From positions 1,210 to 65,209 of the IMG/VR virus record IMGVR_UViG_3300015264_000002: a DNA stretch of 64,000 nucleotides; one strand, written 5' to 3'. Made by a program: the position numbers and the translations under genes. Each line of letters starts with the position of its first letter. Positions within the stretch are counted from its first letter, which is position 1. The DNA is from a virus. The notes under the pieces were generated by a model, which was not told the origin of the DNA, did no database searches, and saw only the letters and a list, made by a program, of their open reading frames with translations. Positions 8,652 to 24,029 of this stretch are shown piece after piece.

Positions 8652-9293
8652 ATGCCCGGGGCAGGCGACACCTTCTGCACGCCCGAGGCGGTGCAGGCGT
8701 ACCTGGCGGCGGGCGGGCTGGTCACCAGCGACCTGGTCGAGCTCGGCAACCTCGTGCGCCGCTGCACCGGCATGGGGTGCGACGCCATGGGGCTGCCGCC
8801 CCGGCAGGACGGCAAGCCGCGCACGCCGTACCTGGACACGTACGTCGAGCGGTACAACGGCGGCGGGGGCTACAAGCTGCTGCTGCAGCAGTACCCGGTC
8901 GCCAGTGTCGAGCAGCTGATCGTCGACGGCAAGGTGATCCCGGGGGCACCCGACACCGCGCCGCTGTCCGCCGGCTTCGTCGTCGACGGTGCCCTCGGCG
9001 TCGTCGGCCTCCGCGGCGCCGCGAGCTTCGGGTTCGGCTACCCGTGGCGCTTCACCAAGGGCCTGCAGAACGTCGAGGTGCACTACACGGCCGGGCTGCC
9101 AGAGGGCGACCCGATCGTCGACGGGCTCGAGGCGGCGTGCGTCGAGCACGCGGCGCTCGCCTGGAAGCGCATCCCCCGCACCGGGCTCAAGTCCGAATCC
9201 TTCGACAAGGCCACCACGGCCTACATCACCGCCGCCATGCCCGACACCGCGGCGGCCTTCTACCGGTCCCGCCGCCGCCGGGTGTTCATATGA
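8652..9293 (+). CDS. Head-tail adaptor/connector
   Basis: YPVASVEQL.VDG..IP, F.KG.QNVEVHYTAG, ACVE..A..WKR...G..SESF motifs. Confidence 0.8.
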   Translation: MPGAGDTFCTPEAVQAYLAAGGLVTSDLVELGNLVRRCTGMGCDAMGLPPRQDGKPRTPYLDTYVERYNGGGGYKLLLQQYPVASVEQLIVDGKVIPGAPDTAPLSAGFVVDGALGVVGLRGAASFGFGYPWRFTKGLQNVEVHYTAGLPEGDPIVDGLEAACVEHAALAWKRIPRTGLKSESFDKATTAYITAAMPDTAAAFYRSRRRRVFI

Positions 9294-10302: not shown

Positions 10303-10380
10303 CAACTAAGCTCGGGCATTGCCGGGGCGTCATGGGGGCGCCCGGTTTAGCACACACAGCGGTGGGGAGGAGGCGGGAGG

Positions 10381-11145
10381 ATGCAACACTTTTTCGGGTC
10401 GGGCGCCATGATCGTGACGCCCACGCAGGTGGCCAACGCGACGCCGATCCGGCTCGCGGTCATGCAGGAGATCAGCACGGACTTCTCCTTCAACGTGAAG
10501 GAGCTGCACGGCCAGAAGTCGTTTGCGGTGGCGATCGGCCGCGGCTTCGGCAAGATCACGGGCACGGCCAAGTCGGCCAACCTGTCGGCGCGCGCGCTGG
10601 CGGGCATGATGTTCAACCCGACCACGGCGCCCAGCACCACGCAGGTGCGGCTGGCCGAGGACGAGACGGCGACGCCCGTCGGCGCCAGCTACACGGTGAT
10701 CCACACCACCGGCATGAAGGACCTGGGCGTGGTCAACAATGTCACCGGCATCCAGATGGACAAGGTGACCGTCACGCCGACCGCCGACACGCAGTACGAG
10801 GTCAACGAGGGGACCGGCACCTACACCTTCAATGCCGGGTTCGTCGACCAGGTGCAGGTGTCCTACACCTACACGTCGGTCATCGCGAGCGCGTCCACCT
10901 TCTCCATCGACAACCAGGTCATGGGGAGCGCGCCGTTCTTCAAGGCGGTGCTGGGCGGCCTGTACAACCAGGACCAGTCGGACGGCACGACGGCGCCGAA
11001 GCACTGGGCGCTGATCCTCAACCGGTGCCTGGGCAGCAAGTGGAATTTCCAGACCAAGCAGGAGGACTTCGTGGTGCCGCAGTTCGACTTCTCCTGCTTC
11101 GCGGACGTGTCGGGGATCATCGGCACGATCAGCTTCGAGGAGTAG
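10381..11145 (+). CDS. Major tail tube protein
   Basis: FGSG...P....QE+S.DFSF..KEL.GQ..FAVA+GRG.GK+TG.AK motif; strong RBS. Confidence 0.85.
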   Translation: MQHFFGSGAMIVTPTQVANATPIRLAVMQEISTDFSFNVKELHGQKSFAVAIGRGFGKITGTAKSANLSARALAGMMFNPTTAPSTTQVRLAEDETATPVGASYTVIHTTGMKDLGVVNNVTGIQMDKVTVTPTADTQYEVNEGTGTYTFNAGFVDQVQVSYTYTSVIASASTFSIDNQVMGSAPFFKAVLGGLYNQDQSDGTTAPKHWALILNRCLGSKWNFQTKQEDFVVPQFDFSCFADVSGIIGTISFEE

Positions 11146-11245
11146 TAGCGCGGCCGCGCAGGCTTAGCGCCGAGCGACACACAGGGACGCTGCACGAGCC
11201 GCAGCCCGGGGCGGAGGGAACGCCGGGCGGGGAGGAGCACACACC

Positions 11246-11599
11246 ATGCCCGCAACCGCAGCTGTCAAGATCACCGCCACCGTCACGGGGCTCCGCGACG
11301 GCGGCCAGCTCACCATCGGGCCGCTCACGCCGGCCGCCACGCCGGTGCTGTCGCGCACCGATCCGCTCGACCTGGCGAGCGGCAGCAACGCGATCACCCC
11401 GCCAGTGGGGGCCAAGGTCTGCATCTTCGTGCCGCCATCGGCCAACACGCAGACCATCACGCTCAAGGGCGTCACCGGCGACACCGGCGTGCCGCTCTCC
11501 AAGACGCAGCCGCAGTGCATCGCCCTCGACGGCAGCGGGGCGGCGTTCGATCTGACGACCGGCGGCACGATCGCGGGCTGCTGCATCCAGTTCCTCTAG
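11246..11599 (+). CDS. Small beta-rich virion/tail-associated protein
   Basis: RBS GGGGAGGAG; located in tail operon. Confidence 0.6.
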   Translation: MPATAAVKITATVTGLRDGGQLTIGPLTPAATPVLSRTDPLDLASGSNAITPPVGAKVCIFVPPSANTQTITLKGVTGDTGVPLSKTQPQCIALDGSGAAFDLTTGGTIAGCCIQFL

Positions 11600-11683: not shown

Positions 11684-12268
11684 ATGGACGCGATCCCATC
11701 CCCCGCGCCCACCGCGGCCCCGACCGCGACGCCGCCGGCTGTCAGCACGGCCGACGACGTCGCGGCCGCGGCGGCCGCCCAAGCGCCCGACGCCTGCCCG
11801 GCGTGCGAGGGCTGCCGGCGCAAGCTGGTCCGCCCCCGCTACGAGGGCCAGCGGATCCGCATGCGTGACGGCCTGACGTACACCTGCCCGCCGCTCACCA
11901 TGCGGGAGGTCCGGCAGAACCGCGAGCTGCTGCACAAGCTGACGGTGACCGAGCAGATGGTCAGCAAGACGCTGGCCGACCGCGGCGTGCAGGCGAGCGA
12001 CATTAGCGCGGCCGCCATGGACGACGAGTACGCGCAGGGCGTGTGCCAACTCGCCTGGGTGGCCTTCCGCCACAACTACCCCGACCTGACGTACGCGATC
12101 GTCGATCCGGCTACCGGCGCCGTCGAGGAGGTCCTGCGCGGCGTCGACGCGCTGCTGGGACTGGTCGACGCGCGCACGATCCGCCAGCTGGCCCACGCGA
12201 TATGGGCGCAGAGCGGGTACGGTGAGAACGGGGCGCCGCGGGGGGAAGCGGGGCGGGTCGGCGGGTGA
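11684..12268 (+). CDS. Tail assembly chaperone (gpG-like)
   Basis: Between tail tube and tape measure genes; overlaps a second ORF at a G6 run. Confidence 0.7.
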   Translation: MDAIPSPAPTAAPTATPPAVSTADDVAAAAAAQAPDACPACEGCRRKLVRPRYEGQRIRMRDGLTYTCPPLTMREVRQNRELLHKLTVTEQMVSKTLADRGVQASDISAAAMDDEYAQGVCQLAWVAFRHNYPDLTYAIVDPATGAVEEVLRGVDALLGLVDARTIRQLAHAIWAQSGYGENGAPRGEAGRVGG

Positions 12269-12587
12269 GGCGCTGACGTGGGACGACGTCTACGCAATCC
12301 TGTGCATCAACACCGGCTGGCCGCCGTCGGTTGTCGACGGGCTACGCTGGCCGGCGGTGCGCGCGCTCTTGAAGCAGTGGCGGCTGGCGCCGCCGCCGCA
12401 TGTCAGCCTGGCCGCGCTCACCAACTACAAGCCGCCCCCCGACCCGCAGCAGGCCGCCGTCCCGACGCTCCGCCGGTCCGACATTCTCGCCATGTTCGGT
12501 GGCACCAGCAGCGGCAAGGAGTTCCAGGTGACCACCCGCTGGGCCGACGACCCGGTGATCAAGGCGGCGTTTGCGCCGCCCGACTAA
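12240..12587 (+). CDS. Tail assembly chaperone frameshift extension (gpT-like)
   Basis: W.D.YA.L...TGW....VD.L.WP...AL..QW...PP motif; reached from the upstream frame by -2/+1 shift at GGGGGGAAG (12240-12248). Confidence 0.65.
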   Translation, partial: GGKRGGSAGEALTWDDVYAILCINTGWPPSVVDGLRWPAVRALLKQWRLAPPPHVSLAALTNYKPPPDPQQAAVPTLRRSDILAMFGGTSSGKEFQVTTRWADDPVIKAAFAPPD

Positions 12588-12626
12588 CTAACCAGCGCGC
12601 GGATAACTAGCCCCTAGGCACTACTT

Positions 12627-15600
12627 ATGGCCACCGGTGACGTTGCCGAGCTGAAAGTCCTGATCAGCGCCGAGCTCGGCCAGCTGCGGGCGATCATGCA
12701 GCAGGGCCGGTCGGAGGTGTCGGGCGCCAGCCAGGAGATGGCCCACGCGCTGCGCGGGCTGCAGTCCGAGTCGGCCGCCAGCATGCGCGGGCTGCAGGAC
12801 GAAGTGCGCGGGGGCGTCGCCGGCGTCACCGGCATCATGCGCACCCTGTACGGGTCGATCGGCGGCCTGTTCGCCGGCCTGGGGATCCGGGAGGCGCTGT
12901 CCGAGATCACCAGCGGCACGCAGGCGTTTGCCTTCGACGTCGAGGAGCTGGCGCGCCGGCTCGGCGTCACGACGGAGGAGGCCAGCGCCTGGATCGCGGC
13001 CGAGCGGCTGGCGGGCGTCGAGTCGGGCGCCATGGACCGCGTGCTGCAGGGCCTGCTGCGCACGATCGACACGAACAGCGCGGCGCTGACGCGCAACCAG
13101 GTGGCGTTCAAGGACGCCGCCGGCGCCGTCCTGCCCCTCGACCAGGTGCTGCTCAACGCCGTGACCCGCTACAACCAGCTGTCGGCCGGCGCGCAGCAGG
13201 GGCTCTTTGCCGTCGAGGTGTTCCACCGCGGCCTGGCGGGCATGACCGAGGTGCAGCGGCTGGCCGAGAACCTGGCGGCCGGCAAGCAGGCGGTCGAGGA
13301 CCTGGGGCTGTCGTTGACGGGCGACGGCGTCGTGTCGGCCCGTGCGTTCGAGTCCGAGATCGCGCTCGGGCGGCTCGCGCTCCTGGGCGCGGCCGAGGCC
13401 GCGTCGGCCGGGCTCAAGCCGGCGATCGCGGACCTGGTGGCCGACGTCGTCCGGCTCGCCAAAGAGGGCAAGCTGCGCGAGTGGGGCGAGGAGGCCGGGG
13501 TTGCGCTCCGCAACCTGGTCAATGCGATCGGCCAGCTGACGGCCTGGCTGACGACGCACGAGCATGCCGTCGGCCTGGTCGTGCAGGCGTATATCGCCTA
13601 CCGCGCGGCGCTGGTCGGCGTCGCGGCCGCCACCGCCAGCGTCGCGGCGTACACGGTGGTGAGCGAGGGCCTGGCGATCGTCGCCCGGTTGGCGCAGGCC
13701 GCCACGGCGGGGCTGTACGGCACGGTCAGCAGCGTGGAGGCGCTGACGTGGGCGCTGGGTGGCCTCGGCGCGGCCGAGGCGGTGGTCACGGGCGGCCTGT
13801 CGATCCTGCTGGGGATCCTGACGGGCGGCGCGGCGCTCTGGCTGACGCACAAGGCCGGCGCCGACCTGTTCCGGTCGGCACTCTCCCAGCTGGCGACGCA
13901 GGCGCAGCAGACGAGCGATCGGCTGCGCGACATTTACGTGCGCGCGGCCGACGCGGCGGTCGAGGCCGCGCGGGTGCACGGCACGTCCAGCCAGGAGTAT
14001 GTCGACGCGCTCGAGCGGCAGACGGCGGCGCACGCCAAGCTGGACGCCGCGCTCCGCGCACAGGTCGACGTCGCCAAGACCGAGTACGAGCGCGACAGCG
14101 CGGCCTTCGCGCTCGAGACGGCCAAGAAGGCCAGGGACCAGGCGTGGCTCGACGCCGGGATCAACGCCTTTTACGCGCTGCTGGGGATCGGCGCCCGGGA
14201 ATACGCGGCCGACAGCGACGCGTACGTGGCCGCCCGCACGCGCATGGTGGCGGCGCAGAAGGCGCTGCAGGACGCCGAGGACGACGTCAAGCGGAAGAAG
14301 ACGGCGGCCGAGCTGGTGGGCACGACCGGCACGGGCAGCGCCGTGCCCGATCCGACCAAGGCGGCACAGAAGGCGTACGACGAGCTGAAGGCGCTCGAGG
14401 AAAAGGACCTCGCCAACTTCCAGCACAACGAGGAGAAGCGGCTCGAGATCGTCCAGCTGTACACGGCGCAGATCATGGCCATCCGCGGCCTCGATCCCAA
14501 GGCGGCCAACGAGCAGTACAAGCTGCTGGCGGCGACGACGGAGCAGGCGGAGACGCAGCGCACGGCGCTGATCACTGCCGGCAGCCAGGCGACGCTGCGC
14601 GCGCGCACGGCCGAGATCGACGCCGAGATGGACCTGGTGAAGGAGCAGGCCAAGCACGACGAGATCGACCGCACGGACGAGCTGACGCAGCTGCAGACGC
14701 TGCTGGCCGAGAAATACACGCTGCGCCAGGCGGAGCTCGAGCGCGAGCTGGTCCTGCAGGCGGGCGGCGCGGAGCGGCTGGCGGCGCTGCGGGCCGCCCT
14801 CGCCCAGGTGACGCCGGGATCGGCCGAGGAAGCGCAGGTGATCCTCGACCTCAACGTGCGGAACCCCGACGCCTTCCAGAAGGTCCTGCAACAGCTACGC
14901 GACCTGGGGCCGGAGGCGGCCAAGGCGGCCGCGGCGCTCGAGCGCGAGATCGACCCCGTGGGCCACCACATGGAGCAGCAGGCCCAGGAGATCCGCGGCG
15001 CCTTCGACGCCGTGTTCGGCAGCCTCGACAGCGGCTTTAAGGGGGTCGTCCAGGGCATCCTGCAGGGCACGCAGACGGTCAGCGAGGCCATGCGGAAGCT
15101 GGAAAGCGACGTTGCTAGCCAGGGCATCAGCATGGCCGCGTCGTTCCTGCTGAAGGTGCTCGAGATGCAGGCGCTGCGCGTCGCCGCCGAGGTGACAGGC
15201 AACGCGGCGATCCTGGCGAGCGACAAGCTGACGGCCACCGACCGGATCGCCCTCGCCGTCGGTGACCAGGTGCTCGAGCTGACCGGGCTCAAGGCCACGC
15301 AGGCGGCGAAGGACGCGCTGCGCTTCCCCGAGCTCGCCAAGGACGCCGCGCTGTACAACGCCAAGGCCGCGGCCGCGGTGGCCGGCGAGGCGCGCGAGGT
15401 GGCGGCGACGACCGCCGGCGAGCACACCAAAACGGCGGTCACCACGGCGGGCGAGACGCTGCGATCGCGGGTCGCGCAGCAGGGCGTGCTCGGTGCCCTC
15501 GCCAGCTACGTGCTGGAGGAGCTGGGGTTCGTCAAGAAAGAGACGACCAAGACGGTGGTCAAGGCCACCAGCGACCAGCTGCAGGTCGCGTCGACGCAGG

Positions 15601-18600
15601 TCGCCGCCACGGAGAAGGGCGCGATCGAGGCGGCGGAGACGGAAAAGAGCCTGCTCCGCTCCGCGATCGACGCGGCGGGCAAGGCGTACAGCGCCCTGGC
15701 CGGCGTCTACATCATTGGCCCGATCCTGGGCGCGGCTGCCGCCGCGGCCACGTTCGCGGCCGTCCTCGCCCTCGGTGCCGGGATCGCCGCCGAGGGCGGC
15801 GCGACGAGTGTCGGCACCGCCGGCACGATCGGCGCCGGCGCCGGGCCGCAGGCCACCACGCTGGCGACGCCCGTGGCCGACATGATCCGCGGGCTGGACG
15901 ACGGCAGCCCCGCGGCGCCGTCGCTGGCCGCCGCGGGCGCGATCATGGAGGTGGGGCCGCAGGCCGGCGTGCACACCTTGCCGATTGGCGCCATGGTCGT
16001 GCCGGCCGCCCTGACAGGGCCCGTGCGCGCCCTGGCCCGCGGCGCTGCCGGCAGCACGCAGCGGGGACTGGCGGCCGGGGCGGGCGTCGCGGCGCTGCTG
16101 CACCCGGGCGAGATCGTGGTGGCGCCGGGGCCGGCGGCGATCCTGCGCGCGATCGCCAGCGGGGCCACGGGTGGTGCGACCCGCGCGGGCATGGCCGGCG
16201 CGCTCCGCGGTGCGCCGTCCTACGCGGCCGCGGGCGGCCTGACGGAGGTAGGGGGCCCCGGCACCGTCCGCGACGCCGGTGGCCGCCTGGCCGCCCTGGG
16301 GACGCCTGGGAGCCGCGCGCGCGCCGTGGCAGCACCTGGTCCCCTGGGTACGTCGCCGCGCACGGCCCTGGCCCCTGACGTGCCGATCACCGGTGCCGAC
16401 GCCACGGACGAGGCAAGTGCCTTGGCCCTTGGAATAGTCCAGCGGCAACCACCGGCCGCAGCAGGGGAATCGCCGGTCAGTGGACGACGCCCCGCGGGCG
16501 CGGGTGAAAGTAGGCCGGGCACGCCGGGCGCACGAGAGCTCGCACTCGCGACAACGCCAGGCGCGACGGACACCGCCGGGCCAGCCGCACTCGCCGCGGC
16601 AGGCGGCCTGACCGAGGTGGAGGCTGCCGGTGCACCGGCAGGTACGACGGCACCAACGCCTCGGCCGGCGGCGACGCTGGTCATACCGGCCGCGCAGGAG
16701 GCTGTTCGTGCGCCTGATTCGGTAACAGGGGCGGGGTCTCCGGTCACCGCCCGTCGACAGGCTGCGCCGGCCCTGGTCGTGCCGGCCGCCGCGATCCCCG
16801 GTGCTGGTGGCGGGCAGCGGGGGCTAGCTGCCGGTGCACCTGATGAGGGACTGGCAGCGCCGACGTCGACGACCCTGGCGACCCCCGTGGGTCGCGGCGT
16901 GCCGGGATACGCCGCGGCGGCCGGCCTGACGGACGCCGGCGGCAGCGACGCACTACCTGGGGGACGTTTGCCGGAGCGCCCGGGACTTTCACCCAATCTT
17001 GCCCAGGCGCCGGTGACGGGGGGCCGGCCTGGCAGCCGACAAGGTGGCGACCACGCAGGGGAAATGGCGGCCAGACAGGACGCCGGTATTTCGCCCATCA
17101 TATCCCTAGATGCCGGGTCGACCGCTGCACAGGCGGGCGCCGCGATCGCGGCGACGGCCGGTATAGACGACGTGGGGGCGGCCGGGGTGCCCGAGGGGAC
17201 GGCCGCGCCGACGTCGTCGACGCTAGCAACGCCGGTCGCGGACACGCGTCAGCCGGCCGCGTCGGGCATTGTGGTGCCAGCCGCCCTGGCCCGCAGGGCT
17301 ATTGGCAGCAGGCGGGACGTCGTGAACCGCGCGCGTGAGGGTACGCCTGGGGGTGCCCCCGACAGCGGGGCGACGACCACGGCGCCGGGCGGCGCTGCGA
17401 TCGCGGCCGCTGCCGGTACGACCGACGTGGGGGAGGCCGGTGCGCCTCGCAGGGCGGTTACGACGACGCCGGCCACGACGCTGGCAGCCCCGGTCGCGGA
17501 CGCGGATCGTCAGCCTGCGCCTGGCCTAGTCGTGCCGGTAGCCCCGGCCCACGGCGCGACCGGCGGCGCCAGGCAGGGCGGCGCGGACACTGCCGGCGCC
17601 GCGATCGCGGCCGCTGCGGGCATGACCGAGGTCGAGGAGGCCGGTGCGCCCGCAGGCACGGCGGCACCGACGCGGACCACGTTGGCGGTGCCGGTGGCCG
17701 ACACGATCCGACAGTGGGCCGCGTCGGGCATGGTGGTGCCGGCCCTGGCCGCCCCCGGCGCCGTGCGCGCCGTCGGGCCGCGGCCGCTGATCACGACCCT
17801 GGCGCCGGGCCAGATGGTCGTCCCCGCGGCGCTGGCACCGCTGGTCCACGTCCTGGCAACCGGCGCGACGGGCGGCAGCCGGCCGGCGGCGATCGCCACG
17901 GTGCCCGGGGCGGCCACGGCCGCCCCGCCGGCACCGGGTGGCCCCGGCCTGGTCGCAGCGGCGTCGCCTGCACCTCGCCAGGCTGCTGCGGGGGGCCTCA
18001 CCGCAACCGGTGCCGGCGTGCCGGCCCTGGTGCACCCGGGCGAGGTGATCGTCGACACGACCCCGGCCGAGGTGCTGCGGCAGGCAGCGACCGGTGCGAC
18101 AGGCGGTGCGACCCGACGCGGCATGGTCGGGCTGGTGACAGGTGCGGGCGTTGGTACGGAGCCGCCCCCCGAGGCTGTGCTGGTGGGGGATGGGAGGAGT
18201 GGGGGCGGCTCCCTACGAGCGCCTGCGGGGCCGCAGGTCAGCGCGTTCAGCGGCGCGGCGGCGATCACGGGCGAGATGATGATGCTGTCGGCGGCCGGCG
18301 GCCTGACCAGCGCGCCGGGCAGCATGACGGCGTCGACGGCCGGCGCAGCGCGCGTGTCGGCGGCCGGCGGCCTGACCACCGCTGCGGCCGGCGCCCTGCC
18401 GGCGCAGCGCCGGGATGCCCCGGCATCTACCAGCGGCGAGGCGCCGACGGTCGATGGCACAATCGGGCCCGCTGCTCAGTATGAGAAGACCACCACGCCG
18501 GCGGTGTCGGCCGCCGGCGGCCTGACGGCAGCCGCCGGTCCCATGACCGGCGGCATGGTGAGCGCGGCCGAGGGGCTGACCACCGCAGCGATCGTGCGCG

Positions 18601-19481
18601 GCGGCGGCCCTGGCAGTGGCACCGCGCCGGTCACCGGCGGCCCGACGGGTGCCGACCTGGGCGCCGCAGGTGGGGGCACGACGCCCGGCGGCAGTGCGGC
18701 GCTCGGCGGCGGCGGTCACCCGGGGCGCGACGCCGCAACGGTCGAGCACAAGGGTGCGGTCAAGCACGAGGTGGAGCATAAGGCGTCGGGCCTGACGCCG
18801 CCCAATATGTCGGTGACCGGCTTCGCCGGCGGTGGGGGCGGCAGCAAGGTCCAGCCGGTGAGCGTCGTCTCCGCCCCGGCCGTGGTGGGCACCACGGTAC
18901 GCGGCGGCACGGTCACGGCCAATATCACCACGCCCGTGCAGACGACGCCGGCCGGCAACGAGCCGTTGCCGGTGACCGACCAGGGCGGCGTCAAGCAGGT
19001 GCTGGTGCAGAACATCCCCCTGCGCGTTGCCTTCACCGCCACCCAGGTCATGGCCAGCGTCGCCACGTCGATCGCGCCCTTCGGGATCGGCGTCGTGATC
19101 GGCGCCGGCTTCGGCATGATCAACGCCGCGCGCGGCGGCGCCGACGTGCCCGCGGACATGCTGGCCCAGCTGCACGGCGGCGAGCTCGTGCTGCCCGCCG
19201 ACCTGTCGACCGGCTTCCGCGACCTGGTCCGCCACCCCGACGCGCGGCCCGCGGTCGTGCGGATCGAGGAGTCGCCGGCGACGACCGTCGCCCGGGCCGC
19301 CGCGGCGGCGCGCGCGCGCGAGGACGGGAGCGCCGGCGGCGACAAGTATTACGTGCAGGTCGACTACCGCACACACAGCGTGCCCGAGGAGGAGGCGTTC
19401 CTCGAGCGTCACAGCCGCTTCATGGGCAAGCTGCTTGCGCGCGAGCTGCGCCTGACCCAGGGCGGAACGCGGCGGGCGTAG
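12627..19481 (+). CDS. Tape measure protein with about 1100-aa low-complexity expansion
   Basis: Helical Ala-rich 2284-aa ORF after chaperones; C-terminal ARGG.DVP.DM.AQLH.GE.VLP motif. Confidence 0.9.
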   Translation: MATGDVAELKVLISAELGQLRAIMQQGRSEVSGASQEMAHALRGLQSESAASMRGLQDEVRGGVAGVTGIMRTLYGSIGGLFAGLGIREALSEITSGTQAFAFDVEELARRLGVTTEEASAWIAAERLAGVESGAMDRVLQGLLRTIDTNSAALTRNQVAFKDAAGAVLPLDQVLLNAVTRYNQLSAGAQQGLFAVEVFHRGLAGMTEVQRLAENLAAGKQAVEDLGLSLTGDGVVSARAFESEIALGRLALLGAAEAASAGLKPAIADLVADVVRLAKEGKLREWGEEAGVALRNLVNAIGQLTAWLTTHEHAVGLVVQAYIAYRAALVGVAAATASVAAYTVVSEGLAIVARLAQAATAGLYGTVSSVEALTWALGGLGAAEAVVTGGLSILLGILTGGAALWLTHKAGADLFRSALSQLATQAQQTSDRLRDIYVRAADAAVEAARVHGTSSQEYVDALERQTAAHAKLDAALRAQVDVAKTEYERDSAAFALETAKKARDQAWLDAGINAFYALLGIGAREYAADSDAYVAARTRMVAAQKALQDAEDDVKRKKTAAELVGTTGTGSAVPDPTKAAQKAYDELKALEEKDLANFQHNEEKRLEIVQLYTAQIMAIRGLDPKAANEQYKLLAATTEQAETQRTALITAGSQATLRARTAEIDAEMDLVKEQAKHDEIDRTDELTQLQTLLAEKYTLRQAELERELVLQAGGAERLAALRAALAQVTPGSAEEAQVILDLNVRNPDAFQKVLQQLRDLGPEAAKAAAALEREIDPVGHHMEQQAQEIRGAFDAVFGSLDSGFKGVVQGILQGTQTVSEAMRKLESDVASQGISMAASFLLKVLEMQALRVAAEVTGNAAILASDKLTATDRIALAVGDQVLELTGLKATQAAKDALRFPELAKDAALYNAKAAAAVAGEAREVAATTAGEHTKTAVTTAGETLRSRVAQQGVLGALASYVLEELGFVKKETTKTVVKATSDQLQVASTQVAATEKGAIEAAETEKSLLRSAIDAAGKAYSALAGVYIIGPILGAAAAAATFAAVLALGAGIAAEGGATSVGTAGTIGAGAGPQATTLATPVADMIRGLDDGSPAAPSLAAAGAIMEVGPQAGVHTLPIGAMVVPAALTGPVRALARGAAGSTQRGLAAGAGVAALLHPGEIVVAPGPAAILRAIASGATGGATRAGMAGALRGAPSYAAAGGLTEVGGPGTVRDAGGRLAALGTPGSRARAVAAPGPLGTSPRTALAPDVPITGADATDEASALALGIVQRQPPAAAGESPVSGRRPAGAGESRPGTPGARELALATTPGATDTAGPAALAAAGGLTEVEAAGAPAGTTAPTPRPAATLVIPAAQEAVRAPDSVTGAGSPVTARRQAAPALVVPAAAIPGAGGGQRGLAAGAPDEGLAAPTSTTLATPVGRGVPGYAAAAGLTDAGGSDALPGGRLPERPGLSPNLAQAPVTGGRPGSRQGGDHAGEMAARQDAGISPIISLDAGSTAAQAGAAIAATAGIDDVGAAGVPEGTAAPTSSTLATPVADTRQPAASGIVVPAALARRAIGSRRDVVNRAREGTPGGAPDSGATTTAPGGAAIAAAAGTTDVGEAGAPRRAVTTTPATTLAAPVADADRQPAPGLVVPVAPAHGATGGARQGGADTAGAAIAAAAGMTEVEEAGAPAGTAAPTRTTLAVPVADTIRQWAASGMVVPALAAPGAVRAVGPRPLITTLAPGQMVVPAALAPLVHVLATGATGGSRPAAIATVPGAATAAPPAPGGPGLVAAASPAPRQAAAGGLTATGAGVPALVHPGEVIVDTTPAEVLRQAATGATGGATRRGMVGLVTGAGVGTEPPPEAVLVGDGRSGGGSLRAPAGPQVSAFSGAAAITGEMMMLSAAGGLTSAPGSMTASTAGAARVSAAGGLTTAAAGALPAQRRDAPASTSGEAPTVDGTIGPAAQYEKTTTPAVSAAGGLTAAAGPMTGGMVSAAEGLTTAAIVRGGGPGSGTAPVTGGPTGADLGAAGGGTTPGGSAALGGGGHPGRDAATVEHKGAVKHEVEHKASGLTPPNMSVTGFAGGGGGSKVQPVSVVSAPAVVGTTVRGGTVTANITTPVQTTPAGNEPLPVTDQGGVKQVLVQNIPLRVAFTATQVMASVATSIAPFGIGVVIGAGFGMINAARGGADVPADMLAQLHGGELVLPADLSTGFRDLVRHPDARPAVVRIEESPATTVARAAAAARAREDGSAGGDKYYVQVDYRTHSVPEEEAFLERHSRFMGKLLARELRLTQGGTRRA

Positions 19482-19483
19482 CC

Positions 19484-20158
19484 ATGGCGATCAGCACCAC
19501 CCCCGTGTTCCCGATCACGGACGCCACGAGCCCCTGGCTGTGGCGCGGGATCGACTGGCAAATCGTCATGACGCCCGAGCACATGACGGAGCGGCAGCGC
19601 ACAGTGACGTCGCGCGAGGCGCGGACGGCCCGGTGGCCACACCCGCTGTGGCACTACAAGCTCAAGTGGACGGTCCTCGAGGACGACCCCAGCCAGCCGC
19701 GGAACGCGGCGCTGGCGTACCCGGCGGACGAGCTGCAGACGCTGGTCGATTTCATCCTGCTGGTGCGCGGCGGCTTCCGCCCCTTCTTCTTGAACGTGCC
19801 ACACGACCAGGCCGTACTGGCGCAGGTGATCATGTCCGCCACGCCGGCGGGCAACACCGACTACGAGATGCTGCGGGCGTTCAAGCCGGGCGGCGTCCCG
19901 ACGCCCGTCGGCGGCGTCAACGAGGATGCGCCGTTTGCCGTCCGCGTCAACGGGGCGACGGTGATCGCGCAGCTGAACACGCCGCTCGACGGCTGGATCC
20001 GGCTCGACCTGCCCCCGCCCGAGGGGAGCGTGCTCGACGCCGACTTCGGCTACTACCACAAGGTCACGCTGGCCAAGGACGTCGCGGACTTCGAGGCGAT
20101 CCAATACAACCTGTGGCAGCTGGCGACGGCCCTCGAGTTCGTCACCGCCCCGCCCTGA
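19484..20158 (+). CDS. Distal tail protein (DUF2460/GTA-like)
   Basis: P..MT.RQ..VT.RE.R...W..PLW...L.W..L...DF....RG....F...P.D pattern; follows tape measure gene. Confidence 0.75.
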   Translation: MAISTTPVFPITDATSPWLWRGIDWQIVMTPEHMTERQRTVTSREARTARWPHPLWHYKLKWTVLEDDPSQPRNAALAYPADELQTLVDFILLVRGGFRPFFLNVPHDQAVLAQVIMSATPAGNTDYEMLRAFKPGGVPTPVGGVNEDAPFAVRVNGATVIAQLNTPLDGWIRLDLPPPEGSVLDADFGYYHKVTLAKDVADFEAIQYNLWQLATALEFVTAPP

Positions 20159-20162
20159 TCGC

Positions 20163-21260
20163 ATGCGGGCCGCGCGCAACGGGGTGCTCGACACCACGGC
20201 CGCGCTCGACGCCTTCCTGCAGGCGGCGACGACGACCGAGTGGGTCATGGTCGACCTGTACCGGGTCGAGCTGGTCAACCTCGGCGCCGGGCTGTTCCCG
20301 GTCACCGACAGCGCGCGCGGTCTGGTGCTGCTGTGGGCCGACTATCCGTACGCCGTCCCGTTCGAGGGGCTGACCTACCTGGGCGGCCTGCCGATCGCCG
20401 GGCAGCCCGCCAGCTTCGTCACCGACAGCCATGGCCGGATCGCCGGGGGTCCGCGGATCACGCGCGGCGATCGCAAGGAGGGGATCGGCGTCGACGTCGC
20501 CACGCTTGAGCTCACGATCCACCTGGACGGCACCGAGGAGCTGCCGCCTGCTGACGGGCTCGACGCCACCCCGCGGATCGGGCTGGCCGAGGCGATCGCC
20601 ATGGGGCTGTTTGAGGGCGCCTACGTCAGCGTGCGGCGGTTGCACATGCCCGACCACCCGGTATGGCCGCTGACGCCCGACTCGTTCGACCTCCACCTGG
20701 GCGCTGTCGATCTGTTCACTGGCCAGGTGATCGACAGCAAGGTGTCGCAGACGGTCGCCACGCTGGCGGTGCACAGCCACACGGAGCGGCACAGCCTCGG
20801 GCTGCCGCGCAACCTGGTGCAGCCACAGTGCCCCAACACGCTGTACGACCCCATGTGCGGCGCGTCGCGTACCGGCGTGCAGCCCGTGTTCCTGATCCCG
20901 TTCCAGGCCGTTGGCACGATCGCCGCCGTGACCGACCTCGCCAACATCGTCGTGGACATTACGGGGGCCTTCGGACCGCCGCCCGATACCTGGTTTACCC
21001 TGGGCACGGCGCAGCTCACCGCCGGCGTGCTCGCCGGCTACGCCAGCACGATCCGCGCCCACCTCGACACGTACCCGACTGCCACGCTGCAGCTGCTGGG
21101 GCGGCTGCCGCGGTCGCCTGCGGTGGGCGACGCGATCGTGCTGCAGGCGGGGTGCAAGAAGGACGTGCCCGACTGCTTCCAGAAGTTCGGCCGCTTCCAG
21201 TCGGCCGTGCAGGGGTTCCGCGGCTTCGTAGACGTCCCCGCTCCGGACTCCGCGATATGA
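20163..21260 (+). CDS. Baseplate hub/tail tip protein (DUF2163/BR0599-like, Cys motif)
   Basis: PRNL.QP.C...LYD..CG and C-terminal GCKK...DC..KF.....FRGF..VP. Confidence 0.8.
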   Translation: MRAARNGVLDTTAALDAFLQAATTTEWVMVDLYRVELVNLGAGLFPVTDSARGLVLLWADYPYAVPFEGLTYLGGLPIAGQPASFVTDSHGRIAGGPRITRGDRKEGIGVDVATLELTIHLDGTEELPPADGLDATPRIGLAEAIAMGLFEGAYVSVRRLHMPDHPVWPLTPDSFDLHLGAVDLFTGQVIDSKVSQTVATLAVHSHTERHSLGLPRNLVQPQCPNTLYDPMCGASRTGVQPVFLIPFQAVGTIAAVTDLANIVVDITGAFGPPPDTWFTLGTAQLTAGVLAGYASTIRAHLDTYPTATLQLLGRLPRSPAVGDAIVLQAGCKKDVPDCFQKFGRFQSAVQGFRGFVDVPAPDSAI

Positions 21261-21787
21261 CGACGCTGCTGCCTGTGCCCCTGGCGCTGCAGGTGCGGGC
21301 GTTGGCCGCGGGCGCCACGCCCGCGCAGCTCCGGGTGATCGCAGAGGCCGCGACGTGGCTCGGCACGCCGTTCGTCCCCGAAGCAGCGAAGCGCGGCGTC
21401 GGCGTCGATTGCCTCATGCTGCCGATCCGTGTGTACGCGGCGACGGGCAACGGACCCGAGCTTGACCCGAGGCCGTACGGGAAGGGCTGGTACAGAGGTG
21501 CGGCCCGCTATCGCCGCACGCTGCGCCGCCATGCCACGCTCTGGACCGCGGACGCGCCGCCACCGCCGGCGGCGCTCGTCCTGTTCAAGCTGACGACCGC
21601 GACCGCCACGGACGGCGCGCACGGCGGGATCGTCGTCGCCTGGCCGGTGATCATCCATGCCCACCCCGGCTTCGGCGTGATCGTCAGCCGCGCCGACGAC
21701 GACGACCTGCGCGGGGACTTCCGCGAGGCGTGGGTGCCGCACGGGCTCGCGCCGGCGGCGACTATAGTAGGCGGGGAGGCCCACTAA
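21257..21787 (+). CDS. NlpC/P60 tail-associated peptidase
   Basis: A..WLGTPF......GVGVDC and AHGGI..W..IIHA; ATGA overlap. Confidence 0.85.
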   Translation: MTTLLPVPLALQVRALAAGATPAQLRVIAEAATWLGTPFVPEAAKRGVGVDCLMLPIRVYAATGNGPELDPRPYGKGWYRGAARYRRTLRRHATLWTADAPPPPAALVLFKLTTATATDGAHGGIVVAWPVIIHAHPGFGVIVSRADDDDLRGDFREAWVPHGLAPAATIVGGEAH

Positions 21788-21788
21788 C

Positions 21789-24029
21789 GTGGGCATGAAG
21801 GGCGGGAAGCCGCCGTCGGCGGCGCAGCCCCAGGCGATCAAGTCGCTGCGCCTGCAGTCGTCCAGCTGGGGGCAGGCGATCCCGCTGGCGTACGGCGAGA
21901 ACCGCCTGGCCGGCAACATCATCTTTACCGGCTACTTCCTGGCGATCGCGCAGCCGTCGGGGTTGCCGTCGGGTGGCAAGATCGGTGGCCGCCAGGCGTT
22001 CGTCACCTACGTGTACACGGTCAGCTGGATCATGGTGCTGAGCGAGGGGCCGCTGGACGCCGGGACGTTCCCCGCCGACATTGGTGGCCCGCTGGTCCCG
22101 GCGTCGGGGGTCGAGCGGTTCAACATCGGGCTTGCCCGTCCCGGGAACCAGGTGATCTCCGTTGACGGCAGCGGGGCGCAGCACAAGCAGCCCGTCGCGG
22201 GCGTCGACCCGGGGGCGTGGAAGGCCAAGCGGGTGCGGCCGGTCGGCAAGGCCGTCCACGGCTTCGCCAACCCCGTGAAGCTCCACGACTGGACCGGCAC
22301 GCGCGTCTATATCCGCCCCGCGGGAACGGCCGTCACGCCGTACGCCATGGCCGACGCCTTCAAAAACCACGTCAACCACGGCGTCCCGCAGCCGCAGCAC
22401 ACCACGTACGTGTCCGACCACGGGGAGAATTACGAAGGGTACGCCACGATCACGGAGCAGAACGAGGACCTGGGCAGCAACGCGTCGATCCCCAACTGGA
22501 ACTGGCCCGAGCGGTCGCTGTGCCAGTACCGCGACGTGTACGGGGCCGCGGCCGACGGGATCGGCAGCGACGGCGCGGGCAACATTTACGATGCCGACCC
22601 GGCGTGTATCAGCCGCGACCTGCACGCCAACTTGAAACACGGCGGCGGCTGGGAGCGGCCGCAGCTGCGCGCGTACCTGCCGGGCTGGCCCTATACGTGG
22701 GGGGCGGGCCTGGCGGCCGACGTGGTGCCGCCCGAGTCATGGTCGGCCTGGTGCCGTGCCGCCGACATTCTGATCAGCCCCATTTACGACGCCCAGCGCA
22801 AGCACGCGGACATCCTGACCGACCTGTGCGCGATCACCACCTGCGCGCCGGTGTGGACGCCCACCGGCTTGAAGGTGATCCCATACGCGCAGGACGCGAT
22901 CACGTCGACGCGGACGGGCGTGACCTACACGCCCAGCACCGACCGCCTGTACACCGGCCCCGGGGCATGCGTCGCCGTCCGGTACCACTTGAAGCCCGGC
23001 GACTTCCTGCCCGGCAAGGACCGCGACCCGGTGCAGGTCGAGCGGAAATCGGCGGTGCCCGATCACGGCACGGTCGGCCGCTACAACGACCTGCGGATCG
23101 AGTACGTGGACCGCCTCAACGCCTACGCGACGACCATCGCGCAGGTCAAGGACGAGGCGAGCATCGGCCAGGTCGGGCTGCTCAGCAAGGACCCCGACAC
23201 GTACCACGAGATTTGCGACGGCGCGCTGGCGACCGGCGTGGCGACACGCAACCTGGCGCGCCTGGTCACCGACCGCAACGTCTACCACTTCAGCCTGGGC
23301 TGGCGCTTCCACATGGCCGAGTGCATGGACGTGCTCGGGATCCCCGGCAGCGTGCTCGGCCTGGCCATCGACGAAATCCTGGTGCGCGTCACCAACATTG
23401 CCGAGGACAAGTCGGGCAAACTCGACTTCGACGCCGAGGAGTATGCGGTGATCGGGGCGGGGCCGCCGCCGACCGTGGTACCGCCGGCGGTCACGGCGGT
23501 GGGCGACGAGGGGCCGCACGTGATCTGTGGGGCGACGTCGCCCGGGACCATCCAGGACCCCGACAGCATCAACAATACGACGAAGAACTACGACCTGCAC
23601 GGGCTCAACACGGATGACGACCTGTCAGCGGGCGGCATCGCTATTAACGCATTCAGTCCCGGCGTGCCGGGCGCCGTCCCGCTAGTCGCCCCCACGGGGG
23701 TGCTGATCACCCGCTGGCGTATCCGTTTCATGGTGTCCGAGTTCGTGGCCGCTGGCTACATCCCCGGTGAGAACGCCCAATACAGTCTCCACCGCTTCCG
23801 CTTCACGGTGAACGGCGAATCGCGGCCAGAGTTTGAGGTGTTTTTCAACGACCGGCTGGGCGGTGCGATCAAGACTGTGGACGCGATCCTCTTCGTGCCG
23901 GCAGGTGCGCGCGTGGGGATTGAGGTCCGGTATTTTTACGAGAACGGCACCGCGATCCCGGATTTTACGGAGAATGCAAACATGATGGGGACCATCGCCA
24001 CATGGCAGATCGTCTGTGAGGCGGCCTAA
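21789..24029 (+). CDS. Central tail tip/host-specificity protein (GTA gp15/J-like, N-terminal and phage-tail_3 parts)
   Basis: Q.S.WGQAIPLAYG.NRL.GN+I...F; N...IEY.DR.N.Y....Q..D..SI...GL; alternative C-terminal domain. Confidence 0.8.
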   Translation: MGMKGGKPPSAAQPQAIKSLRLQSSSWGQAIPLAYGENRLAGNIIFTGYFLAIAQPSGLPSGGKIGGRQAFVTYVYTVSWIMVLSEGPLDAGTFPADIGGPLVPASGVERFNIGLARPGNQVISVDGSGAQHKQPVAGVDPGAWKAKRVRPVGKAVHGFANPVKLHDWTGTRVYIRPAGTAVTPYAMADAFKNHVNHGVPQPQHTTYVSDHGENYEGYATITEQNEDLGSNASIPNWNWPERSLCQYRDVYGAAADGIGSDGAGNIYDADPACISRDLHANLKHGGGWERPQLRAYLPGWPYTWGAGLAADVVPPESWSAWCRAADILISPIYDAQRKHADILTDLCAITTCAPVWTPTGLKVIPYAQDAITSTRTGVTYTPSTDRLYTGPGACVAVRYHLKPGDFLPGKDRDPVQVERKSAVPDHGTVGRYNDLRIEYVDRLNAYATTIAQVKDEASIGQVGLLSKDPDTYHEICDGALATGVATRNLARLVTDRNVYHFSLGWRFHMAECMDVLGIPGSVLGLAIDEILVRVTNIAEDKSGKLDFDAEEYAVIGAGPPPTVVPPAVTAVGDEGPHVICGATSPGTIQDPDSINNTTKNYDLHGLNTDDDLSAGGIAINAFSPGVPGAVPLVAPTGVLITRWRIRFMVSEFVAAGYIPGENAQYSLHRFRFTVNGESRPEFEVFFNDRLGGAIKTVDAILFVPAGARVGIEVRYFYENGTAIPDFTENANMMGTIATWQIVCEAA

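What the first reader, a model, noticed from the sequence alone, without database searches (positions are those of the whole stretch)
15786..19200. Tape measure protein with about 1100-aa expansion of its C-terminal AxGG / LH.GE.V.P motif
The conserved TMP C-terminal motif starts at IAAEGG (15786) but appears complete only about 3.3 kb later (ARGGADVPADMLAQLHGGELVLP). Between them are more than 10 degenerate copies (AAAGGLTEV, AIAAAAGMTEV, LLHPGEIVV, LVHPGEVIV, SAAGGLT x4) separated by Pro/Thr/Ala linkers. Codon usage is atypical at about 16300-17300. Inference: either an unusually long tail, or a non-measuring disordered domain that is ejected into the host or proteolytically processed. I know of no described TMP with this amplified motif array.
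Basis: partly seen in the sequence, partly recalled or inferred. Interest (0 to 1): 0.7.

Follow-up and report, generated by a model that had tools for sequence, protein, structure and literature searches.

The report
Expanded motif array in tape measure
The tail-length ruler protein of an uncultured soil phage carries a real, roughly 1,100-residue floppy stretch built from worn copies of a short motif that its relatives carry one to six times: an extreme case of a known way these proteins vary, not a new kind of protein.

Summary
Observation confirmed. ORF 12627-19481 is one 2,284-aa tape measure gene of a complete 65.6-kb soil-metagenome phage. Between two hydrophobic segments (aa 1029-1053 and 2143-2163) lies a 1,089-aa Ala/Gly/Thr/Pro-rich stretch. 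It holds about 14 'AxGG' starts, three full 'AxGG...LHxGExVxP' motifs, three clear 60-aa tandem units and a duplicated 120-aa module. Motif counts exceed shuffles 60- to 500-fold.

The motif is the family's own C-terminal motif. Of 105 family proteins scored, 95 have one copy, at a median of 91 aa from the end; the nearest relatives have two to six. The array is therefore not unique in kind. Here, however, the tail after the first motif position (1,231 aa) is over twice the largest relative's (562 aa), and about 850 aa have no counterpart.

A/T-ending codons rise from 4% to 26% in aa 1206-1660; this is unexplained and may reflect relaxed constraint. AlphaFold without an alignment predicts no helix in the array. 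No exact repeat exceeds 24 nt, and a second assembler gives the identical sequence, so misassembly is unlikely, but only one sample holds it.

Best reading: a disordered, tunable spacer between ruler and tip anchor, positioned like lambda gpHC. Whether it lengthens the tail or is cut off is undecided. Earlier scan reports noted smaller tape-measure expansions elsewhere.

The parts
12627..19481 (+). Whole tape measure gene, 2,284 aa (P0001), stop codon included
   Evidence: Open frame. Synteny with tail genes. 643 HMMER relatives, whose members hit PHROG tape-measure families. The exact protein is on record on 2 contigs.
12627..15710 (+). N-terminal ruler part, aa 1-1028: 58% helix-favouring residues, 9% Pro+Gly, GC3 about 0.96
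   Evidence: Aligns to relatives over aa 1-1135. Composition; GC3. Helicity was not modelled here except for aa 1002-1050.
15711..15785 (+). First hydrophobic segment (aa 1029-1053), the family-wide 'GPILGAxAAAxxFAxV' stretch that precedes the motif
   Evidence: Hydropathy scan and alignment with relatives. Modelled as a helix.
15774..16223 (+). Block I (aa 1050-1199): a first unit with AEGG and MVVPAAL separated by an insert, then module A with a full LLHPGEIVVAP motif and GATGGATR
   Evidence: Unit HMM 22 bits at aa 1050-1106. Family motif HMM gives partial matches at aa 1050-1063, 1123-1140 and 1152-1175. Paralogous to block IV (E 3e-13).
16224..17132 (+). Block II (aa 1200-1502): most degenerate units (AAGGLTEV at aa 1201 and 1324, AAAGLTD at aa 1430); lowest GC3 (0.60-0.75)
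   Evidence: No stops in frame, against 2-15 in the other five frames; mononucleotide shuffles stay open in 0.16% of trials.
17133..17774 (+). Block III (aa 1503-1716): three clear tandem 60-aa units, 'AGAAIAAAAGxTxV..GAP.GTAAPT.TTLA.PVAD..RQ.AASGxVVPAAL', starting 85 and 68 aa apart
   Evidence: DNA identity 72-81% in frame. Amino-acid identity 55-72%, dN/dS 0.24-0.68. Unit HMM 80-102 bits, but these are the seeds.
17775..18176 (+). Block IV (aa 1717-1850): module B, a paralogue of module A, with the full motif AAGGLTATGAGVPALVHPGEVIV
   Evidence: Family motif HMM 14.5 bits, E 1.3e-6, at aa 1787-1824. Self-BLASTP.
18282..18596 (+). Block V (aa 1886-1990): four short SAAGGLT / SAAEGLT units, the youngest copies
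   Evidence: DNA copies 84-96% identical over 23-50 nt. The longest exact repeat of the array, 24 nt, lies here.
18597..19052 (+). Block VI (aa 1991-2142): module shared with the nearest relatives. It has a Gly-rich TAPVTGGPTG block, a His/Lys block (HKGAVKHEVEHK) and a strand-rich stretch
   Evidence: Aligns to P0005 (40% over aa 1989-2272) and P0003. Strands modelled at aa 2077-2108 with low confidence.
19053..19226 (+). Second hydrophobic / Gly-zipper-like segment (aa 2143-2163) and the terminal, best-kept motif (aa 2162-2200)
   Evidence: Family motif HMM 41.9 bits, E 3.8e-15. GC3 1.0.
19227..19478 (+). C-terminal helical domain (aa 2201-2284), the presumed tip-anchoring end
   Evidence: Conserved with P0003 and P0005. 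Helices with pLDDT 75-86. The anchoring role is inferred from lambda gpH residues 818-849 binding gpI (PMC12617516).
19484..21260 (+). Downstream tail-tip genes: DUF2460 distal tail protein (19484-20158) and BR0599 / phiJL001-gp84 hub (20163-21260)
   Evidence: Pfam and PHROG matches.

Best explanation
This is one genuine tape measure gene. Its family ends with a fixed module: a hydrophobic segment, then the motif 'AxGG, about 12 residues, LHxGEhVLP..A..VR', then about 60-100 further residues. In a sub-clade this module is doubled, with a spacer between the two hydrophobic segments that holds extra motif copies. In this phage the spacer grew to 1,089 aa by repeated in-frame duplication of motif-bearing units of several sizes (20, 60 and about 150 aa), followed by long divergence. 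Only the last copy and the C-terminal domain stay well conserved. The first copy has been split by an insert, and most inner copies are worn down to AAGGxTEV and GxVVPAAL halves. The product is a Pro/Gly/Ala/Thr-rich, probably disordered tether. It links the helical ruler (aa 1-1050) to the C-terminal end, which by analogy with lambda docks on the tail-tip hub. Inferred mechanism: three or six chains of this tether must be housed in the distal tail lumen. They would therefore add tail length, at least about 30-60 nm by volume and up to 165 nm at 0.15 nm per residue. They would also be the first part of the tape measure to leave the tail at infection. Copy number is an evolutionarily tunable quantity in the clade. 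Shown: gene identity, repeat origin, comparison with relatives, composition, codon anomaly. Inferred: disorder, location in the lumen, effect on length, ejection.
For: Identity and continuity. Relatives P0003 and P0005 align to both the N-terminal 1,135 aa and the last 280 aa within single proteins. Motif origin. An HMM built from 87 single-copy family members hits the terminal copy at 41.9 bits and aa 1787-1824 at 14.5 bits, with partial matches elsewhere in the array. Copy-number series among relatives. One copy in 95 of 105 proteins scored; 2 in P0003, L002, P0007 and P0006; 3 in P0017; 4 in P0005 and P0008; 6 in P0009 (counts depend on the score threshold used). Extent. The median distance from the first motif to the C-end is 91 aa and the maximum is 562 aa, against 1,231 aa here. 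Repeat reality is shown. Selection. Differences between copies are concentrated at third codon positions (0.36-0.50 against 0.07-0.35 at positions 1 and 2). dN/dS runs from 0.13 for the AAGGLTEV..GAP core to 0.78, though alignments chosen for similarity bias dN downward. Non-helical nature. The array has 27% Pro+Gly, 12% charged residues and almost no aromatics, and no helix is modelled between aa 1051 and 2139 (single sequence, pLDDT about 30). Assembly. The longest exact repeat is 24 nt, and a 55.8-kb Logan contig covers 12000-20500 with no difference. Lambda analogy. gpH has a hydrophobic segment at 691-712 followed by FATGG..IVHRGEFVF at 733-757. This lies in the fragment that PMC12617516 reports as cleaved off, with only residues 818-849 seen bound to gpI.
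Against: No tail has been measured and no virion protein analysed, so the effect on tail length is untested. The AlphaFold model was made without an alignment and has very low confidence throughout, so 'disordered' rests mainly on composition. The low GC3, and dN/dS up to 0.78, fit sequence that is merely tolerated as well as they fit a selected spacer. Only one sample, probably the source, holds the sequence, and no long reads were available. The match of the family motif HMM to lambda gpH is not significant (-0.4 bits), so the lambda analogy rests on layout seen by eye.
Confidence: 0.55

Rival explanations
1. Non-measuring, processed segment. As with lambda gpH, which is cut in its Gly-rich C-terminal region into gpH* and gpHC, the array is cleaved out or trimmed after tail assembly. 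It would then contribute neither to the final virion nor to length, and tail length would be set by about 1,200 aa (about 180 nm).
For: The array occupies the position of lambda gpHC's unresolved N-terminal part: after a hydrophobic segment and before the tip-binding end (PMC12617516). It is rich in Gly and Ala. It is non-helical by composition and in the model, so it is a poor ruler.
Against: Cleavage has been shown only for lambda and T5 (PMC12617516). In lambda it occurs after the tail is built, so the segment is present while length is set. About 100 kDa per chain must still fit in the lumen during assembly. No protease site can be predicted.
Confidence: 0.2
2. Neutral slippage debris. The array is tolerated filler with no function of its own. 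It is kept open only because a stop or frameshift would remove the essential C-terminal anchor, and it is slowly decaying.
For: GC3 falls to 0.60-0.75 and A/T-ending codons rise to 26%. Most copies score under 4 bits against the family motif. dN/dS reaches 0.5-0.8 for the larger modules. About 850 aa have no counterpart in any relative.
Against: The cores AAGGxTEV, TLA.PVAD and GxVVPAAL are kept across copies whose silent divergence is 0.65-0.8, with dN/dS 0.13-0.3. Relatives keep 2-6 well-conserved copies of 13-57 bits each. Filler of 100 kDa per chain inside a tail lumen cannot be without physical consequence.
Confidence: 0.2
3. Assembly artefact. The array is inflated or chimeric because short reads from related phages were joined through the repeats.
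For: The data come from a short-read soil metagenome, and one sample only. A truncated form ending at aa 1670, inside a tandem unit, is on record from another source. The composition of nt 16250-17600 differs from the rest of the gene.
Against: No exact repeat longer than 24 nt exists in nt 15700-19300, and no 25-mer of this stretch recurs elsewhere in the window. Repeats are at most 81% identical over 89 nt or more. Logan's independent assembly of the run gives a 55.8-kb contig identical over 12000-20500. The full protein is on record from JGI/IMG, Logan and ENA. GC3 changes gradually, not at a sharp joint. The frame stays open through 483 low-GC3 codons.
Confidence: 0.04

Closest known systems
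Unnamed metagenomic tape measure proteins of the same family: P0005 (1,806 aa), P0009 (1,698 aa), P0008 / locus L003 (1,582 aa), P0017, and P0003 / locus L002 type (1,280-1,365 aa)
   Same: Homologous N-terminal ruler (26-36% identity). Same first hydrophobic segment and motif. Same Gly-rich, His/Lys and strand-rich module, then a second hydrophobic segment, terminal motif and C-terminal domain (40-51% identity to P0005). Extra motif copies lie between the two hydrophobic segments.
   Different: They carry 2-6 well-kept copies (13-57 bits) in 190-400 aa. This phage has 1,089 aa with about 14 AxGG starts, most of them decayed and with an insert inside the unit. About 850 aa have no counterpart, and the first copy, the best kept in relatives, is split. 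The GC3 dip is absent in L002 and mild (0.77) in L003.
Phage lambda gpH and its fragments gpH* and gpHC (PMC12617516; sequence J02459)
   Same: Order of elements: ruler, hydrophobic / Gly-rich segment (691-712), ATGG..IVHRGEFVF (733-757), a second ATGG (778-785), then a C-terminal peptide bound to the tip hub protein. Read from the sequence.
   Different: No significant sequence match (family motif HMM -0.4 bits; no PDB sequence hit). In lambda this region is about 150 aa with one and a half motifs. Cleavage is known for lambda and unknown here.
Tandem repeats that tune tape measure length: TP901-1 11/18-residue aromatic repeats (PMC5099701); the survey of repeats and homorepeats in tape measure proteins (PMC13585406)
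   Same: In-frame internal duplication is a usual way for these proteins to change length. About half of the tape measure proteins surveyed have tandem repeats, and poly-Ala, -Gly, -Ser and -Thr tracts are common.
   Different: Those repeats lie in the helical ruler and are marked by Trp or Phe at fixed spacing. This array has W 0.1%, F 0.3% and Y 0.3%, is not helical, and repeats the C-terminal motif itself.
Very long tape measure proteins: phiCbK gp95 (1,964 aa, 295 nm predicted) and CcrColossus gp118 (2,155 aa, 323 nm predicted) (PMC3556154)
   Same: Comparable total length, so size alone is not unprecedented.
   Different: Those are taken to be helical throughout, and the paper reports their lengths in good agreement with measured tails. 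Here nearly half the protein is non-helical by composition, so 0.15 nm per residue may not apply.

Membership tests
Tail length tape measure protein (siphophage type) | Gene lies between the tail tube / chaperone genes and the distal tail and hub genes | tested here: met
   Head-tail adaptor at 8652-9293. Overlapping ORF pair 11684-12268 and 12222-12587 just upstream. DUF2460, BR0599 hub and Phage-tail_3 genes just downstream.
Tail length tape measure protein (siphophage type) | Sequence homology to annotated tape measure families | tested here: met
   Met indirectly. P0001 itself hits only phrog_13338 (unknown function, E 1e-4) and no Pfam or NCBIfam model. Its HMMER relatives P0003, P0020, P0077 and P0038 hit phrog_2854, 8462, 27190 and others annotated as tape measure.
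Tail length tape measure protein (siphophage type) | Long alpha-helical ruler | tested here: inconclusive
   aa 1-1028 has 58% helix-favouring residues and 9% Pro+Gly. Only aa 1002-1050 were modelled, as a helix. The array aa 1054-2142 is not helical in the model.
Tail length tape measure protein (siphophage type) | Protein length sets tail length | not testable with these tools
   Needs electron microscopy of virions or of deletion mutants.
Family C-terminal module (hydrophobic segment + AxGG..LHxGEhVLP motif + short tail) | Motif directly after the hydrophobic segment, near the C-end | tested here: met
   Terminal copy scores 41.9 bits at aa 2162-2200, 84 aa from the end, directly after hydrophobic aa 2143-2163. 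The first copy, after aa 1053, is split and weak.
Lambda gpH-type processing (gpH* + gpHC) | Cleavage in the Gly-rich region after tail assembly | not testable with these tools
   Only the layout is similar (PMC12617516).
Aromatic-periodic tape measure repeats (TP901-1 type) | Trp or Phe at 11- or 18-residue spacing within the repeats | tested here: not met
   The array has W 0.1%, F 0.3% and Y 0.3%. Units are about 20, 60 and 150 aa long.
Tape measure with embedded cell-wall hydrolase (M23, lysozyme, CHAP, Rpf motifs) | Recognisable hydrolase domain | tested here: not met
   No Pfam, NCBIfam or PDB sequence match at permissive thresholds.
Diversity-generating retroelement target | Reverse transcriptase and a template repeat in the genome | tested here: not met
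   No RVT_1 match in the complete 65.6-kb record. The template repeat was not sought separately.

The most novel reading that the evidence does not exclude
The motif copies are not filler but working docking sites, for the tip hub, the chaperones or the tube. A tape measure with many of them either builds tails of several discrete lengths, or deploys a 100-kDa disordered tether per chain that bridges an unusually thick host envelope. In either case, nearly half of a tape measure would break the rule of 0.15 nm per residue.
Probability: 0.1. Interest if true: 0.7.

Novelty: new variant of a known kind. Interest (0 to 1): 0.35.

Why it matters
Tape measure length is the textbook example of a protein ruler, calibrated at about 0.15 nm per helical residue. 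A natural tape measure in which 1,089 of 2,284 residues are Pro/Gly/Ala/Thr-rich and non-helical asks whether non-helical sequence is measured, compacted or removed. The series of relatives with 1, 2, 3, 4, 6 and about 14 copies would make that testable. The repeated element is a motif found in hundreds of tape measure proteins and, by eye, in lambda gpH. It sits in the part of gpH that remains unresolved and whose function is unknown. Natural amplification and decay show which positions are kept (AAGG, GxVVP). The practical value is modest: the phage is known from one soil metagenome and has no cultured host.

Tried and rejected
- tblastn of the protein against 50,697 GenBank phage records: no match.
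- Pattern scan of IMG/VR with the N-terminal 1,053 aa: none confirmed. With the C-terminal alignment: 7 loci, of which only L002 and L003 were useful.
- Word-based homologue searches returned only the truncated self-copy and P0005, probably swamped by low-complexity words.
- Pfam, NCBIfam and PDB sequence searches of the whole protein and of pieces: nothing significant.
- ESM Atlas on aa 1136-1988: no usable hit (one search was a size slip).
- AlphaFold model of the last 269 aa with a 28-row alignment reached only pLDDT 56, and Foldseek against the PDB gave nothing below E 4.6.
- Tandem Repeats Finder saw only short low-score arrays, because the units are too diverged and unevenly spaced. Whole-protein self-BLAST returned only the identity hit until the query was cut into pieces.
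- Depth is one figure per contig and cannot reveal a collapsed repeat. The six 'joints' there rest on sides of 21-22 nt from other GC-rich contigs and were treated as noise.
- Frame permutation as the cause of low GC3 was rejected: no codon position reaches 0.95 there, and only 2 of 25 DNA repeat pairs are out of frame.
- An overlapping gene was rejected: the other five frames hold 2-15 stops, and the antisense ORF 16220-17245 shares the same third positions.
- A diversity-generating retroelement was rejected.
- No complex prediction was run.

Full report
**Context.** The window is bases 1210-65209 of a 65,643-bp IMG/VR virus record with direct terminal repeats, rated complete. G+C is 72.7%. 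The only public run that holds the stretch is a 2017 soil metagenome, which is probably its source.

ORF 12627-19481 (+) is open for 2,284 codons. Upstream on the same strand lie:
- a head-tail adaptor gene (8652-9293, phrog_442);
- a 254-aa gene of phrog_8234 (10381-11145);
- two overlapping ORFs with gene-like GC3 (11684-12268 and 12222-12587), which look like the tail-chaperone pair.

Directly downstream lie DUF2460 (19484-20158), a BR0599 / phiJL001-gp84 hub (20163-21260) and a Phage-tail_3 protein (21789-24029). This is the tail-tip set known from RcGTA (PMC7296036).

The protein itself matches no Pfam or NCBIfam model, and only phrog_13338 weakly. A full HMMER search of 1.84 billion representatives with aa 1-1200 gave 643 relatives. 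Members of that set hit PHROG families annotated as tape measure, such as phrog_2854, 8462 and 27190. [quoted passage not shown]

Repeat evidence within aa 1054-2140:
- AAGG-type starts occur 9 times by a strict pattern (shuffle mean 0.14), and about 14 times by eye.
- TLA.PV occurs 5 times (0.01) and VVP[AV][AL] 6 times (0.06).
- Composition-corrected self-BLASTP pairs aa 1077-1196 with 1684-1840 at E 3e-13.
- DNA copies are 67-81% identical, and 23 of 25 pairs are in frame.
- Three clear tandem 60-aa units sit at aa 1503-1562, 1588-1647 and 1656-1716. An HMM built from them finds four further copies of at least 5 bits outside the seeds, against none in 100 shuffles.

The array has sub-structure:
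- Block I (aa 1050-1199): a split unit plus module A.
- Block II (aa 1200-1502): the most decayed units.
- Block III (aa 1503-1716): the three clear units.
- Block IV (aa 1717-1850): module B, a paralogue of module A.
- Block V (aa 1886-1990): four short SAAGGLT units, the youngest.
- Block VI (aa 1991-2142): a module shared with relatives.
- Then a second hydrophobic segment, the terminal motif and a helical C-terminal domain.

**What the repeated element is.** Most relatives are 650-1,050 aa long (median 840). They end with a hydrophobic stretch of the type 'YVGPILGAxAAAxxFAxV', the motif 'SAxGG, about 12 residues, LHxxEMVLP..A..VR', and a short tail.

An HMM was built from 87 such single-copy proteins; its consensus core is AAGGWDDVPSDPLAQLHKGEMVLPAKLAEGVR. 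Against the window's protein it scores:
- the terminal copy at 41.9 bits;
- aa 1787-1824 at 14.5 bits;
- partial matches at aa 1050-1063, 1123-1140, 1152-1175, 1549-1557, 1589-1603 and 1727-1738.

The 60-aa unit is this motif with about 30 residues inserted between the AAGG part and the GxVVPAAL part. The picture of one motif interrupted by one 3.3-kb insert is not: full copies also exist at aa 1152-1175 and 1787-1824.

**Comparison with relatives.** Among 105 family proteins of at least 500 aa with a motif of at least 10 bits, 95 have one copy. The median distance from the first copy to the C-end is 91 aa, the 90th percentile is 249 aa, and the maximum is 562 aa.

The nearest relatives have the module doubled, with a second hydrophobic segment and terminal motif, and extra copies in between:
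- 2 copies: P0003, L002, P0007, P0006;
- 3 copies: P0017;
- 4 copies: P0005, P0008 / L003;
- 6 copies: P0009.

Their copies are well conserved (13-57 bits each). The window's protein aligns to these relatives over aa 1-1135 and aa 1989-2272 only, so about 850 aa are specific to its lineage. From the end of the first hydrophobic segment to the C-end it measures 1,231 aa. It is also the longest of the 130 family proteins of at least 500 aa examined (2,284 aa against a maximum of 1,806).

No relative closer than 36% identity exists in a library representing 15 billion proteins. The history of the expansion therefore cannot be traced step by step.

**Is it an artefact?**
- The longest exact repeat within nt 15700-19300 is 24 nt, shorter than the k-mers of current assemblers. 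No 25-mer of this stretch recurs elsewhere in the window.
- Logan's independent assembly of the run yields a 55,811-bp contig that covers 12000-20500 with no difference or gap.
- The exact 2,284-aa protein is on record from JGI/IMG, Logan and ENA, on two contigs.
- A 1,670-aa form identical to aa 1-1670 is also on record.
- Both ends of the gene are joined in single proteins in relatives.
- The frame has no stop in the 483 low-GC3 codons, while the other five frames have 2-15 stops. Mononucleotide shuffles stay open in only 0.16% of trials.

Misassembly is therefore unlikely, but all the evidence comes from the short reads of one sample.

**The codon anomaly.** GC3 is 0.93-1.0 in the two ends of the gene and in neighbouring genes. 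It falls to 0.60-0.75 over aa 1210-1660 and recovers only partly until aa 2050. A/T-ending codons are 26% in aa 1206-1660 against 4% in the N-terminal part. For example, GCA+GCT are 28 of 115 Ala codons against 5 of 216. This is the only long dip inside a gene in the window.

Several causes were excluded. It is not a shifted frame, not an overlapping gene and not a retroelement target. The edges are gradual. Relative L003 shows only a mild dip (0.77) in its four-copy array, and L002 shows none.

My best guess is relaxed selection on both residue identity and codon choice in a disordered spacer. This would be in line with the established link between codon bias and site conservation. Import from a relative with lower GC3 is not excluded. 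I record this as unexplained.

**Selection on the copies.** Between paired copies, differences are concentrated at third positions (0.36-0.50 per site, against 0.07-0.35 at positions 1 and 2). dN/dS is 0.13 for the AAGGLTEV..GAP core, 0.24-0.33 for two of the three 60-aa unit pairs, and 0.4-0.8 for the large modules; dS is about 0.5-0.8. The copies are therefore old, and their cores have been kept at the protein level. One caveat applies: alignments picked for similarity bias dN downward.

**Physical nature.** The array is 24% Ala, 17% Gly, 10% Thr and 10% Pro, with 12% charged residues and under 1% aromatics. A single-sequence AlphaFold model of aa 1001-2200 shows a helix for aa 1002-1050 and no helix up to aa 2139. 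Its mean pLDDT is 30, so it is weak evidence. The last 269 aa, modelled with 28 aligned relatives, give strands at aa 2077-2108 and helices in aa 2191-2278 with pLDDT up to 86, and no PDB fold match.

By volume, one chain of the array is about 122 nm3. Three or six chains would fill at least 29 or 58 nm of a 4-nm lumen at perfect packing (the lumen width is general knowledge). At 0.15 nm per residue the whole protein predicts 343 nm, and 179 nm without the array.

**How it most likely works.** In lambda, gpH has a hydrophobic / Gly-rich segment (691-712), then FATGG..IVHRGEFVF (733-757), a second ATGG (778-785), and a C-terminal peptide (818-849) that binds the hub protein gpI. The protein is cut in the Gly-rich region after tail assembly, and the stretch that holds the motif is unresolved (PMC12617516). 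In TP901-1 the last 60 residues and the first hydrophobic region are essential (PMC5099701).

By position, the array here corresponds to the unresolved part of gpHC. I therefore read it as a disordered tether between the helical ruler and the tip-anchoring end. It would be housed in the distal lumen, would lengthen the tail by an amount that cannot be computed, and would be the first part expelled at infection. Its length has been free to drift and expand in this clade.

The main rivals are that it is cut out (lambda-like) or that it is tolerated debris. These differ in predictions that only microscopy, mass spectrometry and deletions can test.

**Novelty.** Internal repeats are common in tape measure proteins (PMC13585406, PMC5099701), and proteins over 2,000 aa are known (PMC3556154). 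Earlier reports of this scan describe smaller copy-number-variable repeats and a Pro/Val spacer in other tape measure genes. New here are the identity of the repeated element (the conserved C-terminal motif), the size of the non-helical part, the decay of the first copy and the codon anomaly. I rate it a new variant of a known kind, of moderate interest.

Noticed in passing
L009 (phage lambda J02459 10400-13300), gpH aa 691-785: Lambda gpH shows the same order of elements by eye: a Gly-zipper-like hydrophobic stretch, FATGG..IVHRGEFVF, then a second YATGGYVG. All lie in the gpHC fragment, which is unresolved in cryo-EM. The family motif HMM scores this region only -0.4 bits.
   Followed up: partly
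window 11684-12587: Two ORFs with gene-like GC3 (11684-12268 and 12222-12587) overlap by 47 nt just before the tape measure gene. The second is in the +1 frame of the first, and a GGGGGGAAG run sits at 12240-12248. This is probably the tail-chaperone frameshift pair, but the frame relation is not that of the classical -1 shift.
   Followed up: partly
window 10332-11555: The mechanically listed 407-aa ORF has GC3 0.53 and is probably not a gene. The real gene there is 10381-11145 (GC3 0.98, phrog_8234, E 8e-41), possibly the major tail protein.
   Followed up: partly
window 12627-17636 (P0002): A 1,670-aa protein identical to aa 1-1670 of the tape measure is on record from another source. It ends inside tandem unit aa 1656-1716.
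   Followed up: partly
window 18744-18782 (aa 2040-2052): The His/Lys block HKGAVKHEVEHK is conserved in the nearest relatives (EHKGTVEHK in P0003 and P0005). It lies between the Gly-rich block and the strand-rich module. It might bind metal or mark a processing site; its function is unknown.
   Followed up: no
window 21260-21789: About 530 bases lie between the hub gene and the Phage-tail_3 gene, where RcGTA carries its cell-wall peptidase gene (g14). This stretch was not examined.
   Followed up: no
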